In this document: in pieces, positions 1 to 63,951 of the stretch
Numbering within the stretch: the stretch's first letter is position 1
Layout: every line of letters begins with the position of its first letter
Source: a virus
Strand: one strand, 5' to 3'
DNA length: 64,000 nucleotides
Virus record (IMG/VR): IMGVR_UViG_3300027754_000003
Location: 1 to 64,000 of that record
Translations under genes and position numbers: made by a program
The notes under the pieces: model-generated
The model's database searches: none
Seen by the model: only the letters and a program-made list of their open reading frames with translations
Told to the model about the DNA's origin: nothing

Positions 1-882
1 AAACTTTTTACCATCACCTCGTGGTTTTGGTGCAGCATCTGCGTTCATGTCTGCTTCCCACTTGTCACCAACAGCATCCATGTCTGCTTTGTTTTGGGCT
101 TTTTCTTCTGGTGACATTTTGTCCTCAACGTCAGCAAGGGCAGGATACTTGTCTCGGAAACCATCTTTCTTTTCTGGTTTCTTGGTAAAACGATTAAGGT
201 CCACGGTGTTGCCCGAACTATCGGAGCGAGGAACTTGCTTAGGAACATTAGTACCCTTACCAGCAAGTGCGCTGTCATCAAGCGTTACAGAAGTACTTGC
301 TTGTACTTCTCCACCTTTTGGAATACCACCATCGTCATTCACTACTTTTCCTGTTGTATTTTTTGGAGCAGGAGTGTTCTTGTTTGCACCTGGCTTCTTG
401 CTTTTAGGCTTTGCCTTTTCTTTTTCAGCAGTCTCGTTCATGCGCTCTACTGCGGCATCAGTTGCGTTCTTTTTCTTAGGTGTTGGCTTCTTAGCCTCTG
501 GCTTTGCTGCTTCTTCTTTTTTAGCAGCAGGCTTCTTAGAATCTTTTTTAGTTGCCACGGTGTCTTCTCCTGATTTAAGTAGGGGTGATGTACGCCATGC
601 ACCGTCTGTAATTAATTTCTGTTTACGTGCGTCATTGGACTCCATTGCCTCTGACTTACTAGCCTTTTCACGCTTTTCTTTTTGGTTAGCAAGTCTGCGA
701 CCTTTGAGCCCCGATGCTTGGTCTTCCGCACTTACCGCTTTACGGGCAGCAGTAGCAGCCTCACGAAGTTCTTTTTCTTCTTCTGGCAATTTATATTCAC
801 CAGCAAGAGGTCCAGAAACTATCTCAGCACGACCACCACGACCACCTTTTGAGTAGTAATTCTTATCTTTTTTAGAAGCCAT
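1..882 (-). CDS. Lys/Ala/Glu-rich disordered protein, 3'-truncated by the window edge
   Basis: Read manually: ATG at 882 opens a frame with no stop to position 1 (MASKKDKNYYSKGGRGG...KKPAAKKEEAAKPEAKKPTPKKK). Missing from the ORF track; the 47..856 + ORF is its antisense shadow. Confidence 0.85.
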   Translation of the reverse strand, partial: MASKKDKNYYSKGGRGGRAEIVSGPLAGEYKLPEEEKELREAATAARKAVSAEDQASGLKGRRLANQKEKREKASKSEAMESNDARKQKLITDGAWRTSPLLKSGEDTVATKKDSKKPAAKKEEAAKPEAKKPTPKKKNATDAAVERMNETAEKEKAKPKSKKPGANKNTPAPKNTTGKVVNDDGGIPKGGEVQASTSVTLDDSALAGKGTNVPKQVPRSDSSGNTVDLNRFTKKPEKKDGFRDKYPALADVEDKMSPEEKAQNKADMDAVGDKWEADMNADAAPKPRGDGKKF

Positions 883-58045: not shown

Positions 58046-58458
58046 GGTATGAATACTAGCGCCGAATCAACGAGATTTCCACCCTTCAAAATTTGGATTA
58101 AAAACTCTCCAGATTCTTCTGGAGTAAACGAACCTATTAGAGAATGTTTGTCCCGTAAAAATGAGTAATAAACACATTCTTTATCCCCGTTAGTCACGAC
58201 TAACTTGCAGTTTTCTACGGTTTCAAAATCGTTCAAATAATCAAACAATATTGGAAATGCGTGGTTAACTTCATCGGGTATATGCATCATAAACCCGTTG
58301 TTAACGGGAACTACTACTACACATGGTTTTGACCTATCAAACTCAATAGATTTTGTTTTTTCCGAATCACCTATTTGGATTGGAAGGCTCCACTCCTTGG
58401 CAAGTTCCTCTGCTTCTTCTAGTTGTTCTTCAGATTGGCAATAAACAATCCTATCCAT
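58042..58458 (-). CDS. hypothetical protein
   Basis: 138 aa coupled ORF inside the enzyme cluster. Confidence 0.65.
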   Translation of the reverse strand: MDRIVYCQSEEQLEEAEELAKEWSLPIQIGDSEKTKSIEFDRSKPCVVVVPVNNGFMMHIPDEVNHAFPILFDYLNDFETVENCKLVVTNGDKECVYYSFLRDKHSLIGSFTPEESGEFLIQILKGGNLVDSALVFIP

Positions 58459-59320
58459 TTTTGTTTTCCTTACGCAGTTTTGTATCTATCTTATTTTGTT
58501 CTGCTTTGTACTTTCCATGAAAATCTTCGTTTCTCCACGCACCATCAAATCCAAGATTATCAAGGAGCGCATACATGGATGAATCTCCTCGTTTTAATGT
58601 TGATTTCTTTGTAGTGTCCTCACGTTTGAATGGGATTACGTGGTACAGAGGGGTTCCTTCTTTAATTACAAACTCGTTATCAACTTTTATATTCAAAACT
58701 ATGTTTGCATGATGGTAATAGTCAGTATTGACAACTCCAGCCATAACTTGGTAATTTTGGTTTGGTTCCCATTGAGGACCTATAAGCAATGATGAGTAGC
58801 CTGGTGCTGTCTTAATAAGCCAAGGATTTAGCAATTTTACATAATTAGATGTTTTTAATTTTCTATCGTTTGCCATTGGACACTCACCAGTTTGGGCAAA
58901 ATTAAACTGATTTTGAGCAACACCCTCGTCTGAAAAGTACTGTTTTTTTTCTTCTTCTGTAAGTACGCCCGTTTCCAATACAGTACTACTGGAGTGGTTG
59001 TATTTAGTATCCCATGTAGCATTTAACTTGCTTATAGGTGGTCGTATGGATATTTCTGCCCACATAGGTATTGTATACCCAGAACGCAAAAAATCTGATA
59101 GACCAGAACACGTACGAAGACTTGCATCTCCCTTTTGTAGTTTTTCATACCACTCTGCAAATTTTGTATTGCTTGCATAAGCGGAAATTGATGGATGATA
59201 AAAATGATTTGTTGGTGGTACCATCAAAACTTCATTTGGTTTAATTTCTGGTATTTGCTCCCAGGTATCTGCTTTTACTAGCCCATCTTCATTATTTTTG
59301 ATTTTTGAAAATAGACGCAT
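58451..59320 (-). CDS. DUF6065-like (dUTPase-like beta-clip) protein
   Basis: C.G..D....GY.IP.W, K..NPW.I.T.PGYS, GVV.TD.Y, I..GTPL..VIPF.RE. Confidence 0.65.
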   Translation of the reverse strand: MRLFSKIKNNEDGLVKADTWEQIPEIKPNEVLMVPPTNHFYHPSISAYASNTKFAEWYEKLQKGDASLRTCSGLSDFLRSGYTIPMWAEISIRPPISKLNATWDTKYNHSSSTVLETGVLTEEEKKQYFSDEGVAQNQFNFAQTGECPMANDRKLKTSNYVKLLNPWLIKTAPGYSSLLIGPQWEPNQNYQVMAGVVNTDYYHHANIVLNIKVDNEFVIKEGTPLYHVIPFKREDTTKKSTLKRGDSSMYALLDNLGFDGAWRNEDFHGKYKAEQNKIDTKLRKENKNG

Positions 59321-60770
59321 GTGGAACTCTCTTTCGTTGTAGTGTCATTGACCTTAGTGACGTATAGTGTTGAATTATTGGTTCTCTTGATTGATAAGCA
59401 TCTAGACCCATAGATGCTACTTCTTTTGGTATTAACCCCTGCCCTTGTGCAACGTGCCACAAATGAGGAGTAGCAAATAACTCATAACCAAACCTAGGAA
59501 TATCAGTGTCTAATGGTACTCGTTCTTTCCACAATTCAAGAAGAAAACTCAGTGTATCTGGAATTTTTGCGTTTTTCTGAGCAACCCACATAGCCGAATC
59601 TTCTCTATCTGATATGTAGTGCAATGAAATCATAGTCAGGATGTTATCCATTAAAGAATCAAAGGTTTTTCTGTAATGTTCAACCTGGGCTACTGACGAA
59701 GGTCCAAATGTTGGCAAAATTGCACAAATCATTCTTGCCTGTTGAATTGAGGTTGAAATTGATGTTGCCTCAAGTGGTTCTACAAAGGAGGAAGCAAGAC
59801 CAACGGAAGCACAGTTGAACTCAAAGGAGTGTTTAAAATACCCAGATTTGTATCTGATTATTCTTGCTGGGGTTATTTCCCTACCATATGCTTCAGAGAG
59901 TTCTTTAACGGCCTGATCGTCTGAGCAAAAATCAGATGCAAAGATATAACCATTTCCTCTGCGTTCTTGAGTTGGTATCTCAAACACCCAGCCATTTGCT
60001 AACGCTCGTGCTCTTGTGTATGGTCGGATTTCCCCAGACTCGTCTGGTGGTGTTGGAAATACTGCAGCAGAGTCAGTGGGCAAATAGTCTCTGTACGAAA
60101 TAAAAGTATCTTCTTTAACTAGTTGTGACATCAACATACGTTTAAACCCAGTTGCATCAATATAGAAATCTGCGGCAATGTTTAAACCAGTGTCTGTTGA
60201 AATTGATGTAATAAACCCGTTTTCTGGGTTTCTTTCAATTTTTTCAACAATTCCTTCATGCAACTCAACCCCTCTATCCTGAGCAAGTCGTTTGAGGTAA
60301 TTGTTTAGTTTGAAAGTGTCAAAATGAAATTGATTTGTTGTGTTGTGTTGTTGATGTGGGTCTTCCGTTTGGATAACCTCGTTATCCCATAGATGATCTG
60401 AGTTTACGGCTGCTGTGAGAGGCCACCCGTTTTCAAGTGCAAATGCATAGTTTGAGTAATAGTCGTTTGGCCCAAAGCCACCCTCTGAAACGCTATGAAA
60501 ATAGTCTGGTGTATGATTTGTCCAGTTTTCAAACCTGATTCCGTATTTGTGCGTTGCAGCGCATTCACGAACCATTTCATTAACATCTATACCGTGTGGG
60601 GTAGTAAAGAACTGTTTCCAGTGCTCTGTTGAGCCTTCCCCAACGCCAATTATTCCTATCTTTGCTGAAGATACAACTGTTAATTTGTAGTGTGGAAAAA
60701 AACCACGGGCCATTATCGCAGTAAGTAATCCAGCAGTACCAGAACCAACTATACAAACATGTTTTTGCAT
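59292..60770 (-). CDS. flavin-dependent (tryptophan halogenase family) halogenase
   Basis: IVGSGTAG, IGVGEG, AT.K.GI.F..W, IDATGF, GWVFEIP, F.EPLEATSI. Confidence 0.92.
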   Translation of the reverse strand: MQKHVCIVGSGTAGLLTAIMARGFFPHYKLTVVSSAKIGIIGVGEGSTEHWKQFFTTPHGIDVNEMVRECAATHKYGIRFENWTNHTPDYFHSVSEGGFGPNDYYSNYAFALENGWPLTAAVNSDHLWDNEVIQTEDPHQQHNTTNQFHFDTFKLNNYLKRLAQDRGVELHEGIVEKIERNPENGFITSISTDTGLNIAADFYIDATGFKRMLMSQLVKEDTFISYRDYLPTDSAAVFPTPPDESGEIRPYTRARALANGWVFEIPTQERRGNGYIFASDFCSDDQAVKELSEAYGREITPARIIRYKSGYFKHSFEFNCASVGLASSFVEPLEATSISTSIQQARMICAILPTFGPSSVAQVEHYRKTFDSLMDNILTMISLHYISDREDSAMWVAQKNAKIPDTLSFLLELWKERVPLDTDIPRFGYELFATPHLWHVAQGQGLIPKEVASMGLDAYQSREPIIQHYTSLRSMTLQRKRVPHASIFKNQK

Positions 60771-60773
60771 GTA

Positions 60774-61379
60774 CTACCTAAACCAAGAAACAATTGAATA
60801 CTTTACTTCCTCGCTGTTTTCTCCAACAGGGTTAGCGTAATGGAAATACGGAAAGTTACTTGGGAACAAAACTACAGAACCAGCCTTTGGTTTTACTGTC
60901 ACATTAAGCAACGGGAATGTAAGTTCTCCACCATCACTAACGTCATTTACAAATCCAACAAGACTAAATACTCTCCCGTTATCTTGGTGGTGGTCAACAT
61001 GGCCCCGATATTCAGCGCCAGAACCATACTTAAGAATTCTGTAACCTTCGTTTGTTGATACTTCAATATTGAATGAATTTCTGTAATGCCAAATAACTTT
61101 TTCTAATTGTTCAGTAATATCTTGTGCGGATTTAGCCAAAGGTATTACTCTTTCAACTTGGATATTGTCAACTGGAGACATTAATGGAGAAAGTTCACAA
61201 CCTTGTGAAGAACGGTACGAACTTGTTGTTGCGGTGCTTTCTCCGCCAGTTTGCGACCTAAACCATTGGACATATCCCCAATCTTGTTTACATTCTCCTT
61301 CTAAAAGTTCTATAAAGTTTGATGGTTTAAAAGCATTCTCATACACGTATATACATGTACCAAGTTCAATTGGTTTCAT
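60774..61379 (-). CDS. prolyl 4-hydroxylase-like 2OG-Fe(II) oxygenase
   Basis: L.Y..G..Y..HVD, R.FS....ND...GGEL.F, FPSNFPY.H...PV, KYS.V.W. Confidence 0.9.
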   Translation of the reverse strand: MKPIELGTCIYVYENAFKPSNFIELLEGECKQDWGYVQWFRSQTGGESTATTSSYRSSQGCELSPLMSPVDNIQVERVIPLAKSAQDITEQLEKVIWHYRNSFNIEVSTNEGYRILKYGSGAEYRGHVDHHQDNGRVFSLVGFVNDVSDGGELTFPLLNVTVKPKAGSVVLFPSNFPYFHYANPVGENSEEVKYSIVSWFR

Positions 61380-61394
61380 TTTGTTAGTCTTTCG

Positions 61395-62855
61395 TTAGGA
61401 ATCTATGTCTTTGATTATAGTCACGTTTGAGTTGGGTATGTGCGTAGAAATGTTTCTTGTGAAAACAACAAGGGTTCCAGGGGCTCCAGGGTTTCCACTA
61501 GCGCCAGGGTTTCCAGGGTTTCCAGAGTTTGCTGTCCCACCAGTACCACCTGGGTAGGTAGGGTTGTGATTTGCTACGGTTCCTGGGGTATGACCAGTGA
61601 CGTTGTGGGTATTGGCGTTATGACCACTGACATTGTGGGTATTAGCGTTATGATTAGCGACATCGTGGTGATTAGCGTTATGACCACTGACGTGGAAGTG
61701 GTTTGCATGGTGTCCATCTTGTGCAGCAACATGTTTTGTGTGTGAGTGACCTTTATGCGTTGGGTGACCAGCGTTATGCGCTGCGTTTCCTGCAGTATGG
61801 GCTGCTGGTCTATGGTGCGCTGGGTTATGGGTTTTTGGGGGAGTTGCACGAATAACGGTTGAAGCGTTATGAAGCGCTCCAAGGAAATGACTAGGGTTAT
61901 GGTATGGGTTTCCAGGAACTGTATGTGGGTGTTGGTGGTTTGGGTTTGAATATGGATGATTTGAAGCAGCAATATGCCACGCAATTGCTCCGCCTTCTGC
62001 ATGATTTGCATAAGCCCCACTACCAGAATCATGGTGGTTTGCAGTAGCCCCACTACCAGAATCTGAATGGTTTGCAGTAGCCCCAGTACCAGCATCCGTA
62101 TGGTTTGCAGTCGCTGGGTTTAAGTTTGCAGTACCAGCAACTGTTGTTCCAGCATTTCCTGCTACTCCAGCATTTCCAGAAGTGCCAGAAGTACCCGATG
62201 CTCCAGTAGTTCCCTCGCTCACAAAAGTTCCACTCCCAGTAATGTTGTTTGCAACAATAACCACTGAACCACCTGCTTGACCAAACGACCCACCAGTTCC
62301 CTTTAATCCCTTTGTCCCAGCAGTTCCAGCGTTTCCAGCAGTTGCGCCGCCTGCTGGTGAAGGAGCCGCTCCGCCTGGATTTGCAGTTCCGTCTGCTCCG
62401 TCTGCTCCGTCAGAACCAGCAGTTCCTTTTGTTCCAGGATACCAACGCTTAACTTGCAACCCAGTTTGACGTACTCCATAAATAAGTGAGTCGTAATCAT
62501 CAATAGAAGCAATAGATGCAATGCTTCCGTCAATAGCATCGGCAGAATTGTATCCAGCAGTCCCGTCATCACGAGTCATCACGCTTCCAGCAAGAACAGA
62601 CGTTGTCTGCGAGGTTCCGCTTGGCATACCTACTGTGCCACTGTTAGCAAGCGTTCCTTTTACAAATATCTTAAATCCGTTTGTGAATAACGTAATTCCG
62701 CTATTTACAGTCAGGTTGTTGTAGTACATATCTCTAGAAATAGTTTGATTAGTAGATATGACAACATTACCGTCAGCACCGTTTCCAAATAATTTTAACG
62801 CTCTGTCGTTTTGAGCAGTCTTGTTTGAAGGTTTGTTGAGTCTAATTTTTTTCAT
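61395..62855 (-). CDS. Gly-rich virion fibre protein with a His/Asn-rich repeat insert
   Basis: FG.G.DG...YNNLT...TNG.KIFV scaffold, G-X-X runs, about 36 His in a roughly 185-aa insert. Confidence 0.7.
   Translation of the reverse strand: MKKIRLNKPSNKTAQNDRALKLFGNGADGNVVISTNQTISRDMYYNNLTVNSGITLFTNGFKIFVKGTLANSGTVGMPSGTSQTTSVLAGSVMTRDDGTAGYNSADAIDGSIASIASIDDYDSLIYGVRQTGLQVKRWYPGTKGTAGSDGADGADGTANPGGAAPSPAGGATAGNAGTAGTKGLKGTGGSFGQAGGSVVIVANNITGSGTFVSEGTTGASGTSGTSGNAGVAGNAGTTVAGTANLNPATANHTDAGTGATANHSDSGSGATANHHDSGSGAYANHAEGGAIAWHIAASNHPYSNPNHQHPHTVPGNPYHNPSHFLGALHNASTVIRATPPKTHNPAHHRPAAHTAGNAAHNAGHPTHKGHSHTKHVAAQDGHHANHFHVSGHNANHHDVANHNANTHNVSGHNANTHNVTGHTPGTVANHNPTYPGGTGGTANSGNPGNPGASGNPGAPGTLVVFTRNISTHIPNSNVTIIKDIDS
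61591..61710. repeat. 4 x 30-bp coding tandem repeat (HNANxHx-VxG)
   Basis: tgaccactgacattgtgggtattagcgtta-like units starting at 61591, 61621, 61651 and 61681. Confidence 0.9.
61996..62114. repeat. about 4 x 33-bp coding tandem repeat (ATANHxD-SGSG)
   Basis: tggtttgcagtagccccactaccagaatc-like units at a 33-bp period. Confidence 0.9.
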
Positions 62856-63589
62856 TATCCAACCTGCATGTAATAGACAGTTCCACTAGCACAGCCAGTA
62901 CCCCCAGTTACGTCTGTTGATACTGCTGCATTTAAACTTGAATCAGAAGAGATAATTAAGACTACACCACCGCCACCGCCACCTGCTCCTGGAGTTCCAG
63001 GGGCAGAAATGTAAGCAGTGCCTGAAGTTACTGTAATGTACCTAGCAACGACCATAACAACGCCACCACCTGCGCCAGCAGTTCCACCAGCGCCACCACG
63101 AAGAAATGTCGGGGTTGGACTAGCGGCAGATACCGCCCATCCTTTAACTGCTTGGAGTGGTTGTTGGTAATAGATAGAACTACCAAGGGCTGCTGTTGGG
63201 GCAGTGGCGGTTTGTGAGGCACTAGCACCACCAAGACTGTGAGTAACTGATGCCGATGTACCCCCACCTTGTCCTAACGTGCCAGCAGTAGAATAACCAG
63301 TCGTATAACCGATTCTTGCTCCAGGACCAAGTGTTAGGACATTACGAACAAACAACCTATAGCCGTTTGTTGACACGGTAATACCACCAGCAATAGTTAG
63401 GTTTGTATAAAACTTGTCCTCAGTCAAAGAAGTGTTAGCGGAAATTGTTGCATCACCGTCTGAGCCAGAACTGTAAATAGGGTCAGGAACATTAATGTAA
63501 TCAACTACATCAGTCCATGTACTTGAGATTGTAGATGTACTTTCCGCAGTTGATATTGTCGTTCCATTTAAGCGAACGAACGATGCCAT
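62855..63589 (-). CDS. Gly-rich virion fibre protein (paralog of 61395..62855 without the insert)
   Basis: Y.SGSDGD.TI...YTNLTI...TNGYRLFV; GGAGG...GGGVV.V.AR.I; G.GGGGGVV. Confidence 0.7.
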   Translation of the reverse strand: MASFVRLNGTTISTAESTSTISSTWTDVVDYINVPDPIYSSGSDGDATISANTSLTEDKFYTNLTIAGGITVSTNGYRLFVRNVLTLGPGARIGYTTGYSTAGTLGQGGGTSASVTHSLGGASASQTATAPTAALGSSIYYQQPLQAVKGWAVSAASPTPTFLRGGAGGTAGAGGGVVMVVARYITVTSGTAYISAPGTPGAGGGGGGVVLIISSDSSLNAAVSTDVTGGTGCASGTVYYMQVG

Positions 63590-63951
63590 TACGACTCCTC
63601 AATACCAGTAAGGATAATATTTACTGCTGAGTTAGTACTTGCCGAACCAATGATTTGGTCGCTATTTGTAGCGTTTGCAGTGCTTCCGTTGTTGTTTAAC
63701 ACCAAAGATGTTGAAATGGTTACAGTTTCGTTTGCTGCTAAAGAAAGAACATTTAAGAAGTTTTGTGACGAAGCCTGAGCCACGTTGAGGGGTTTTAGCA
63801 CCAAAGTAACTGTTACAGCACTACCAGTGGTGTTACATAGCAAGATTTGCTTGATGATTGTGGTAGTACTGATTGGCGTGGTGTACAGCACCGTTGATGT
63901 TGTCGTAGTCAACTGGGTTGGCCCAGAAAGACGTTTTTGGGTGACTGGCAT
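63589..63951 (-). CDS. small beta-sandwich virion connector protein
   Basis: KRL.GP.QL.....LYT......I.QI.LCNT...VN...TG.E. Confidence 0.65.
   Translation of the reverse strand: MPVTQKRLSGPTQLTTTTSTVLYTTPISTTTIIKQILLCNTTGSAVTVTLVLKPLNVAQASSQNFLNVLSLAANETVTISTSLVLNNNGSTANATNSDQIIGSASTNSAVNIILTGIEES

What the first reader, a model, noticed from the sequence alone, without database searches (positions are those of the whole stretch)
61560..62140. His-rich insert with out-and-back symmetry: possible metal-stitched needle
Seen: the first ~250 aa contain no His, then about 36 His fall in ~185 aa. The order is nested: G-X-X run; four AxANHx(D/E) repeats at 11-aa period; a non-repetitive His/Pro/Asn core; four HxANxHx repeats at 10-aa period; G-X-X run (GNPGNPGASGNPGAPG). 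Both arms have four repeats but arose from different DNA repeats (33 bp versus 30 bp). Known: the T4 gp37 tip is a trimeric out-and-back needle held by His-coordinated iron. Inference: the arms pair antiparallel, His residues bind a column of metal ions, and repeat number sets length. It could also serve metal scavenging or metal-uptake-receptor mimicry.
Basis: partly seen in the sequence, partly recalled or inferred. Interest (0 to 1): 0.8.

Follow-up and report, generated by a model that had tools for sequence, protein, structure and literature searches.

The report
His-studded fold-back finger on phage fibre protein
A tail-fibre-module protein of an uncultured lake phage of actinobacteria carries a 190-residue histidine-rich insert; in relatives the two halves of this insert change length in matched, mirror-ordered steps, so they must pair as an out-and-back finger, probably held together by metal ions.

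Summary
The gene at 61395-62855 (-) encodes 486 aa with 0 His in aa 1-251 and 36 His in aa 252-430. A 33-bp and a 30-bp tandem array flank a non-repetitive core, all between two Gly-X-X runs.

About 90 homologues share a His-free beta-helix/Gly-rich scaffold whose N- and C-terminal parts fold together. All carry a 17-29% His insert of 46-313 aa at the same site.

In two homologue classes the out-going and returning arms keep a fixed length offset over 12 length states (permutation p = 4e-5 and 0.003). Their 5-, 7- and 9-residue units occur in mirror order in all five informative architectures. Apparent exceptions have regular sisters in the same 90% cluster. In the window's own class a single x-P-K turn sits at the midpoint of the His span (P0001: aa 341 of 252-430). 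The arms are 62/61 aa, but one close relative has an extra 10-mer in one arm.

So antiparallel arm pairing is well supported. Metal binding is plausible but untested. Homology to the T4 gp37 needle is not supported; the scaffold looks more gp38-like. AlphaFold2 could not model the insert.

First-stage readers of this scan noted similar inserts on three other genomes; those notes are unchecked.

The parts
61395..62855 (-). Gene for the 486-aa His-finger protein (P0001). The stop codon is 61395-61397.
   Evidence: 327 homologues at E<=1e-3.
62217..62855 (-). N-terminal scaffold, aa 1-213. It is His-free, forms beta-helix strands and contains two Gly-X-X runs.
   Evidence: AF2 pLDDT mostly >90. 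VIA-align to bactofilin 6ria: Z 6.7, rmsd 2.1 over 72 aa, model range 26..472. The aa 19-80 motif occurs in 1829 proteins.
62133..62216 (-). Third Gly-X-X run, aa 214-241, at the base of the out-going arm.
   Evidence: pLDDT >90 up to about aa 244.
61947..62132 (-). Out-going (N) arm, aa 242-303 (62 aa). It holds the 11-residue repeats (aa 248-291; 33-bp array 61996-62111).
61740..61946 (-). Tip/core, aa 304-372. It is bounded by two conserved His clusters (HxHxH at aa 307-311; HxxHxH at aa 367-372). The turn T-P-P-K is at aa 338-341 (61833-61844).
   Evidence: The x-P-K motif lies at the midpoint of the His span in 28 distinct homologues (offset mean 1.5, sd 2.9 aa).
61557..61739 (-). Returning (C) arm, aa 373-433 (61 aa). 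It holds the 10-residue repeats (aa 382-431; 30-bp array 61589-61691).
61479..61556 (-). Fourth Gly-X-X run, aa 434-459, at the base of the returning arm.
   Evidence: pLDDT 92-98.
61398..61478 (-). C-terminal strands, aa 460-486. They complete the beta-helix begun by the N-terminal part.
   Evidence: AF2 strands 461-469 and 479-483 at high pLDDT. VIA alignments span model residues 25..486.
62855..63589 (-). Upstream 244-aa paralogue that shares the scaffold motif but has no finger. Its stop overlaps the start of the His-finger gene.
   Evidence: E 1e-10 and 4e-12. In its translation the last hairpin strand, a short Gly run and the closing strand follow each other directly.
63589..63951 (-). 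120-aa protein, always found upstream of the pair (phrog_20100, function unknown).
58451..61379 (-). Downstream 2OG-Fe(II) oxygenase (60774-61379), flavin-dependent halogenase (59292-60770) and DUF6065-like gene (58451-59320). This is context only; a link to the finger is not shown.
   Evidence: Pfam hits. Synteny is conserved in divergent loci.

Best explanation
The protein belongs to the tail-fibre module of a 98-kb phage of actinobacteria. Its scaffold is a beta-helix with Gly-X-X runs, built from the N-terminal 241 and the C-terminal 53 residues together. Between the third and fourth Gly runs the chain leaves the scaffold. It runs out along a 62-residue arm, turns in a 69-residue tip (turn at T338-P-P-K341) and returns along a 61-residue arm.

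The two arms lie antiparallel and in register, unit against unit, like the rungs of a ladder. Evolution lengthens or shortens the finger by adding or losing a matched unit in both arms.

Each unit keeps at least one His. The arm/tip junctions carry His clusters, and in relatives Cys as well. The most likely role of these residues is to bind divalent metal ions that staple the arms together.

Functionally the finger is a hypervariable, length-adjustable probe for the host surface, comparable to a hugely enlarged hypervariable loop of a gp38-type adhesin.

Shown: the composition, the architecture, arm pairing by covariation, the fast evolution of the finger, and the fibre-module context. Inferred: metal binding, receptor contact and oligomeric state. 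My odds are about 0.85 for arm pairing, about 0.55 for metal stapling and about 0.5 for a receptor-binding role.
For: Composition and repeats.

Family: all of the top 90 homologues have a His-free scaffold and a 17-29% His insert of 46-313 aa at the same site.

Scaffold: in two independent AF2 models the N- and C-terminal parts are confident and align together to beta-helices. The neighbouring paralogue shows the same scaffold without the insert.

Arm pairing, by class:
- Class E1 has arm lengths (25,24), (27,26), (32,31), (34,33), (37,36), (41,40) and (46,45).
- Class E2 has (19,20), (23,24), (25,26), (28,29) and (33,34).
- The permutation p is 4e-5 for E1 and 0.003 for E2.
- The two odd states each have a regular sister inside the same 90% cluster.
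- Within one 90% cluster both arms lose the partner 7-mer together.
- Unit lengths are in mirror order, never parallel, in all 5 informative architectures. Given equal unit sets, the chance of this is about 1/648.

Window's class: arms are 62/61 (P0001) and 60/59 (P0003). The states 50/46 and 55/51 are linked by an intermediate 55/46. The single x-P-K motif sits at the midpoint of the His span over spans of 81-189 aa.

Fast evolution: the finger is 45% identical where the scaffold is 84-89% identical.

Context: upstream genes are fibre-like, including one with Mtd_N (PF18454). The genes overlap and no terminator lies between them.

Metal precedent: the His-coordinated iron sites of the T4 gp37 needle are essential for function (PMC6957217). 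HxH sites are proposed in other aquatic phage fibres (PMC11705849).
Against: - AlphaFold2 gives pLDDT 35-50 for the insert in both models, so no fold was obtained.
- In the window's own subclass there are only three distinct sequences. One of them (P0002, 81% identical) has arms of 62/71, that is, one unmatched 10-mer. For class A alone the offset test is not significant.
- Nothing here measures metal. Only four HxH motifs exist, and none lies in the repeats.
- In P0003 the N-arm repeat His is replaced by Tyr. That fits an aromatic or hydrogen-bond ladder as well as a metal site.
- The oligomeric state is unknown.
- No solved structure or curated family matches the protein.
- The landmark motifs used to delimit the arms were chosen after looking at the sequences.
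Confidence: 0.55

Rival explanations
1. This is a true analogue of the T4 gp37 tip: a homotrimeric six-stranded needle with a column of octahedral metal sites on the threefold axis. Each site would be formed by two His per chain, one from each arm.
For: - The out-and-back pairing is supported.
- Simple 5- and 7-residue rungs carry one His in each arm. That gives two per chain and six per trimer.
- Short Gly-X-Y runs flank the insert, with a weak Collagen hit of 19.8 bits.
- There is a gp37 precedent (PMC6957217).
Against: - No sequence or fold similarity to gp37 was found.
- The Collagen score is below Pfam's cut-off of 27.2.
- The Gly runs model with high confidence as part of a single-chain beta-helix domain.
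- 9-residue rungs carry 2+2 His, which does not fit six per site.
Confidence: 0.15
2. The insert is an intrinsically disordered, low-complexity His/Asn/Pro spacer or sticky region. It would have no fixed structure and would be kept only for its composition, for example for pH-dependent charge or unspecific adhesion.
For: - AF2 pLDDT is 35-50 in two models.
- The composition is strongly biased and the insert evolves fast in sequence and length.
Against: - Disorder does not explain matched arm lengths, mirrored unit order, or a centred turn motif.
- It also does not explain the conserved junction and tip motifs across classes that are 45-80% identical.
Confidence: 0.12
3. The finger is chiefly the substrate of the neighbouring tailoring enzymes (2OG-Fe(II) oxygenases, a flavin halogenase and others). 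They would hydroxylate or halogenate its Pro, Asn, His or aromatic residues. The modified residues, rather than bound metal, would give it structure or receptor affinity. This reading is compatible with arm pairing.
For: - The order 120-aa gene, paralogue, His-finger, 2OG oxygenase, halogenase, DUF6065-like is kept in loci whose His-finger proteins are only 30-40% identical.
- The oxygenase gene starts 15 nt after the finger gene, with no terminator between them.
- From general knowledge, not tested here: Pro, Asn and His side chains are known substrates of protein-modifying 2OG oxygenases.
Against: - All these loci belong to one phage lineage, so conserved order is weak evidence.
- The 2OG-halogenase pair also sits together in cyanomyoviruses and pelagiphage HTVC008M, without a His-finger gene beside it.
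- A His-free scaffold homologue (L037, 743 aa) also has 2OG and DUF6065-like neighbours.
- No substrate evidence of any kind was obtained.
Confidence: 0.2
4. The finger serves metal scavenging, or mimics a metal-loaded ligand so as to dock on a host metal-uptake receptor (the 'Ferrojan horse' idea).
For: - The His density is very high.
- The idea is discussed for HxH-bearing fibres of marine phages (PMC11705849).
Against: - The host is an actinobacterium, as two WhiB genes indicate. It therefore lacks the outer-membrane TonB-dependent receptors on which that hypothesis rests (general knowledge).
- Nothing in the data points to a particular receptor.
- The idea does not by itself explain the matched arms.
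Confidence: 0.05

Closest known systems
Needle domain of the T4 long-tail-fibre tip, gp37 (Bartual et al. 2010; functional mapping in PMC6957217)
   Same: It is the distal part of a phage fibre. The chain runs out to a tip and back. His residues line the shaft, where they bind seven iron ions that are essential for folding and infection.
   Different: - No detectable sequence or fold relation.
- gp37 is a trimer with HxH motifs. Here HxH motifs are few and lie outside the repeats.
- His density here is about 20%.
- The shaft is built of modular 5- to 11-residue units that are gained and lost in matched pairs.
- The base is a beta-helix/Gly-rich scaffold, not a fibre shaft.
gp38 adhesins of S16/T2/T6-type phages (beta-helix plus polyglycine-II sandwich; Gly-rich motifs alternating with hypervariable segments; PMC12032242)
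   Same: - A beta-helix plus several Gly-rich runs, interrupted by fast-evolving segments that point away from the scaffold.
- The gene sits just after fibre genes.
- There is a weak structural match to 6f45_D: Z 4.3-4.4 over 116-122 residues in two models.
   Different: - No Pfam GP38 match at E<=0.01.
- The fold match is no better than matches to generic beta-helices.
- gp38 hypervariable segments are short turn loops, whereas here one segment is a 46-313-residue His-rich fold-back.
- The host is an actinobacterium, not an enterobacterium.
His-rich tandem-repeat metal binders such as histidine-rich glycoprotein, Hpn and the prion octarepeat (named from general knowledge, not tested here)
   Same: Short tandem units, each with one or two His. 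In those proteins the units bind Zn, Ni or Cu.
   Different: Those regions are flexible and have no second, mirror-ordered array. Here two different arrays keep equal length and mirrored unit order, which implies a defined paired structure.
Collagen-like phage fibre proteins (Pfam PF01391)
   Same: Runs of 5-7 Gly-X-Y triplets flank the insert.
   Different: The score of 19.8 bits is below the cut-off of 27.2. The runs are short, and they model as part of a single-chain domain.

Membership tests
T4 gp37-type receptor-binding needle | Sequence relation to gp37 C-terminal needle domains | tested here: not met
   No Pfam or PHROG hit of that kind. No PDB sequence match at E<=1, with either the single sequence or the 60-sequence profile.
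T4 gp37-type receptor-binding needle | Out-and-back chain topology of the shaft | tested here: met
   Matched arm lengths and mirrored unit order in homologues, and a centred turn motif. This is comparative evidence, not a structure.
T4 gp37-type receptor-binding needle | Regularly spaced HxH motifs along the shaft | tested here: not met
   There are four HxH motifs, at aa 307, 309, 370 and 386. All lie outside the 11-mer and good 10-mer repeats.
T4 gp37-type receptor-binding needle | Homotrimer with axial His-bound iron ions | not testable with these tools
   Only monomer AF2 without ligands was available.
gp38-type adhesin (beta-helix plus PGII sandwich) | Match to the Pfam GP38 adhesin family | tested here: not met
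   The Pfam scan at E<=0.01 returned only a sub-threshold Collagen hit.
gp38-type adhesin (beta-helix plus PGII sandwich) | Beta-helix plus polyglycine-II sandwich fold | tested here: inconclusive
   VIA-align to 6f45_D gives Z 4.3 (rmsd 3.8, 116 aa) and Z 4.4 (rmsd 4.5, 122 aa). Generic beta-helices score higher, with bactofilin 6ria at Z 6.7 and 6.3.
gp38-type adhesin (beta-helix plus PGII sandwich) | Conserved Gly-rich motifs alternating with hypervariable segments | tested here: met
   Four Gly-X-X runs are present. The segment between runs 3 and 4 is 45% identical where the scaffold is 84-89% identical.
Collagen triple-helix repeat (PF01391) | Score above Pfam's gathering threshold | tested here: not met
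   19.8 bits against a cut-off of 27.2.
Diversity-generating-retroelement target (Mtd-like) | Reverse transcriptase in the genome | tested here: not met
   No RVT_1 match in the complete 98-kb genome. The Mtd_N domain is in the upstream 857-aa fibre protein, not in this one.

The most novel reading that the evidence does not exclude
The family defines a new structural principle: a 'histidine zipper' hairpin. Two different repeat arrays, one on the way out and one on the way back, would form metal-bridged rungs of 5, 7, 9 or 10/11 residues. Finger length would then be tuned by compensatory gain and loss of partner units, giving phages of freshwater actinobacteria a length-adjustable, metal-dependent receptor probe. 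The adjacent oxygenases and halogenase may modify it further.
Probability: 0.35. Interest if true: 0.85.

Novelty: new variant of a known kind. Interest (0 to 1): 0.72.

Why it matters
His-bound metal in phage fibres is known from only a few solved cases, such as the T4 gp37 needle. This family would add a second, unrelated and far more His-dense design.

The family also comes with a rare kind of evidence. Two separate repeat arrays co-vary in length and in unit order, which amounts to a natural compensatory-mutation experiment for a protein hairpin.

If confirmed, three things follow:
- It gives a handle on how abundant phages of freshwater actinobacteria reach and recognise their hosts.
- It gives a case study of how repeat proteins change length without losing register.
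- It offers a modular, length-programmable and possibly metal-switchable rod for protein design.

It would also bear on how much trace metal is bound by phage particles in lakes.

Tried and rejected
- tblastn of the protein against 50,697 phage records found no match. No cultured relative is known.
- Foldseek against the PDB gave nothing at E<=0.001. Foldseek against BFVD gave only collagen-like or Gly-rich viral proteins at rmsd 17-25 Å, which is not informative.
- ESM Atlas returned only unnamed viral clusters and holds no model.
- PDB sequence searches with the single protein and with the profile found nothing at E<=1.
- Two AF2 runs (the window protein, and the short homologue P0057 with a 60-sequence alignment) left the insert at pLDDT about 35-50.
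- Searching longer proteins (852-2430 aa) with the finger alone found none. This is weak evidence that the finger is confined to this scaffold.
- The second protein search and the metagenome scan added no new members of the window's own subclass. That subclass therefore rests on three distinct sequences.
- A DGR origin of the variability is rejected because the genome has no reverse transcriptase.
- A specific tie between the halogenase cassette and the finger was considered. It was not adopted because the same enzyme pair occurs elsewhere without a finger.
- Full-text searches found no description of such a His-rich fibre insert.

Full report
**What is there.** The finding lies in one gene, 61395-62855 on the minus strand, which encodes 486 aa. 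It has 37 His. None falls in aa 1-251, 36 fall in aa 252-430, and one is at aa 472. Background His in this phage's ORFs is 2.2%, so the probability of at least 36 in 179 residues is about 5e-24.

Tandem Repeats Finder reports a 33-bp array at 61996-62111 (3.5 copies) and a 30-bp array at 61589-61691 (3.4 copies). In the protein these are 11-residue units at aa 248-291 and 10-residue units at aa 382-431. Synonymous differences between copies show they are not fresh duplications.

**Genome and neighbourhood.**
- The window is part of a complete 98,060-bp virus record with direct terminal repeats.
- The genome carries portal, terminase and family-A polymerase genes. It also carries two WhiB genes, which points to an actinobacterial host.
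- Upstream of the gene, in transcription order, lie fibre-like proteins of 434 and 857 aa. The 857-aa protein has an Mtd_N domain.
- A 120-aa protein follows, then a 244-aa paralogue that shares the scaffold motif (E 4e-12) but has no His-rich part.
- These genes overlap by one base, and no terminator-like site separates them from the following 2OG-Fe(II) oxygenase, flavin halogenase and DUF6065-like genes.
- The genome has no reverse transcriptase, so a diversity-generating retroelement is excluded.

**The family.** A search of 5.8 billion proteins gave 327 hits, and none has a name or a Pfam domain. In all of the top 90 the first roughly 200 residues contain 0-3 His (six in one N-terminally deleted variant). 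A stretch of 46-313 aa with 17-29% His follows, except in one distant hit at 8%, and then a conserved C-terminal end. The His-rich segment is therefore a constant, selected feature of the family. Its sequence, repeat type and length differ widely.

The segment evolves much faster than the scaffold. Against P0004, for example, it is 45% identical where the scaffold is 84-89% identical. The 60-residue N-terminal motif alone is widespread, with 1829 hits. Homologues that share only that motif are not His-rich.

**Scaffold.** AlphaFold2 with a 90-sequence alignment gives pLDDT above 90 for aa 20-244 and 430-470, and 35-50 for aa 245-427. A second model, of the short homologue P0057, behaves the same way.

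In both models the confident N- and C-terminal parts align together to beta-helices:
- Bactofilin 6ria gives Z 6.7 and 6.3, rmsd 2.1 over 72 aa, with model ranges 26..472 and 25..317.
- The S16 gp38 adhesin 6f45_D gives a weaker match, Z 4.3 and 4.4.

The chain thus leaves a folded domain and returns to it. In the 244-aa paralogue the corresponding strands are joined directly by a short Gly run. The His-rich segment is therefore truly an insert.

I delimited the arms with conserved junction motifs.

- **Class E1** has a Cys-containing tip. Its arm lengths are (25,24), (27,26), (32,31), (34,33), (37,36), (41,40) and (46,45).
- **Class E2** has (19,20), (23,24), (25,26), (28,29) and (33,34).
- Shuffling the arm lengths among the distinct states reaches the observed agreement with p = 4e-5 for E1 and p = 0.003 for E2.
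- There are two irregular states: 32/22, and 10/26 on very short contigs. Each has a sister with the regular state within the same 90%-identity cluster.
- Inside one such cluster, P0041 (34/33) and P0328/P0330 (27/26) differ by the loss of one 7-mer in each arm.

The order of units is also informative. N-arm units of 5, 7 and 9 residues are matched by C-arm units of 5, 7 and 9 residues in reverse order. Examples are N 7,7,9,9 against C 9,9,7,7, and N 5,5,9,9 against C 9,9,5,5. All five informative architectures are mirrored and none is parallel. Given equal unit sets, the chance of this is about 1/648.

The two arrays are separated by 40-70 codons, so a single duplication cannot lengthen both. 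Selection for register is the simplest explanation. This is strong comparative evidence that the arms run antiparallel, unit against unit. They could do so within one chain or between chains of an oligomer.

**The window's own class.**
- The arms are 62/61 aa in P0001 and 60/59 in P0003.
- The P0004/P0005 cluster shows 50/46 and 55/51, joined by an intermediate 55/46. That is one 5-mer added in one arm and then in the other.
- The only Lys-containing turn motif (x-P-K) lies at the midpoint of the His span in 28 distinct sequences whose spans range from 81 to 189 aa. The offset has mean 1.5 and sd 2.9 aa. In P0001 the midpoint is aa 341 and the motif is aa 338-341.
- The repeat zones of the two arms face each other, at positions 7-50 and 3-52 counted from the base.

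Against a perfect rule, P0002 (81% identical) has arms of 62/71, one extra 10-mer. This subclass has only three distinct sequences, and further searches found no more. For class A alone the test is not significant.

**Metal.** Nothing measured here shows metal binding. The case for it is indirect:
- His makes up 17-29% of the insert throughout the family, while every other residue is free to change.
- In class E1 the first residue of each unit is His and the other core unit positions are 78-100% conserved.
- Partner units carry equal numbers of His, 1+1 or 2+2.
- His clusters face each other at the two arm/tip junctions: HxHxH at aa 307-311 and HxxHxH at aa 367-372.
- The tips of classes E1 and E2 combine 2-4 Cys with runs of His.
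- There is a precedent: the seven His-bound iron ions in the gp37 needle, where the iron-binding His are essential (PMC6957217).

Against it: HxH motifs are few, Tyr replaces the repeat His in P0003, and AF2 sees no fold. I put metal stapling at about 0.55.

**Comparison with known systems.** The finger works like the gp37 needle in topology and perhaps in chemistry, but it is not a member of that family. There is no sequence or fold relation, and no HxH column, and nothing indicates a trimer.

The scaffold and the gene position resemble gp38 adhesins. Those have a beta-helix and Gly-rich motifs that alternate with hypervariable, receptor-binding segments, and they are monomers (PMC12032242). 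Membership is not shown, however. There is no Pfam match and only a weak fold score.

I found no description of such an insert in the literature searches, in the PDB or in PHROGs or Pfam. First-stage notes of this scan report similar mirror-symmetric His inserts on three other genomes. Those notes are unchecked.

**The tailoring genes.** The order 120-aa gene, paralogue, His-finger, 2OG oxygenase, halogenase, DUF6065-like recurs in dozens of IMG/VR loci, some with His-finger proteins only 30-40% identical. These loci belong to one lineage, however. The oxygenase-halogenase pair also occurs together in cyanomyoviruses and in pelagiphage HTVC008M without such a fibre gene. A His-free homologue also has the oxygenase and DUF6065-like neighbours. 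Modification of the finger is possible but unsupported.

**Verdict.** The out-and-back reading is supported by covariation. Metal binding is plausible and untested. Kinship with gp37 is rejected. This is a new variant of the hypervariable receptor-binding-insert theme, with an unusual and testable paired-repeat architecture.

Noticed in passing
window 58451-63951 and loci L004-L101: The gene order fibre, 120-aa gene, 244-aa paralogue, His-finger, (138-aa gene), 2OG oxygenase, flavin halogenase, DUF6065-like is kept in many IMG/VR loci. In some of them the His-finger proteins are only 30-40% identical. Homologues that share only the N-terminal motif and lack His stand alone.
   Followed up: partly
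L106 (Synechococcus phage S-H38), L107 (Pelagibacter phage HTVC008M): Halogenase homologues (30-38% identical) occur in cyanomyoviruses and in a pelagiphage. In HTVC008M the halogenase lies directly after a 2OG-Fe(II) oxygenase, between the terminase subunit genes. The oxygenase-halogenase pair thus travels as a unit in aquatic phages. Its substrate is unknown.
   Followed up: partly
G000:C1:89191-89391 and 90861-91055 (outside the window): There are two WhiB-family genes (58.8 and 56.3 bits, both above the cut-off). They point to an actinobacterial host.
   Followed up: yes
homologues P0037-P0070 (classes E1, E2): The finger tips of the short homologues combine 2-4 Cys (a CC pair, or C..C..C) with runs of three His and almost no hydrophobic residues. 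They look like small Cys/His metal knots. The window's own tip has no Cys.
   Followed up: no
homologues P0071, P0319 (302 aa) and P0051: These are rare variants with one arm shortened (10/26, 32/22). They lie on short contigs, and each has a regular sister in the same 90% cluster. They are either repeat collapse in assembly or short-lived natural intermediates.
   Followed up: partly
window 62855-63589 (-): The 244-aa paralogue shows the same scaffold with the two Gly runs joined directly. It gives a natural 'finger-less' control protein encoded next door.
   Followed up: partly
window 62676-62798 (aa 20-60 of P0001) and 1829 database proteins: A roughly 60-residue motif at the start of the beta-helix is very widespread in proteins of 85-1764 aa. 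It occurs at varying positions, often far from the N-terminus. It appears to be a common, unnamed module of viral fibre-like proteins.
   Followed up: no
homologue P0082: One distant homologue has a direct tandem duplication of about 70 residues inside its His-rich region. This is not mirrored. The longer, more distant classes were not tested for arm pairing.
   Followed up: no
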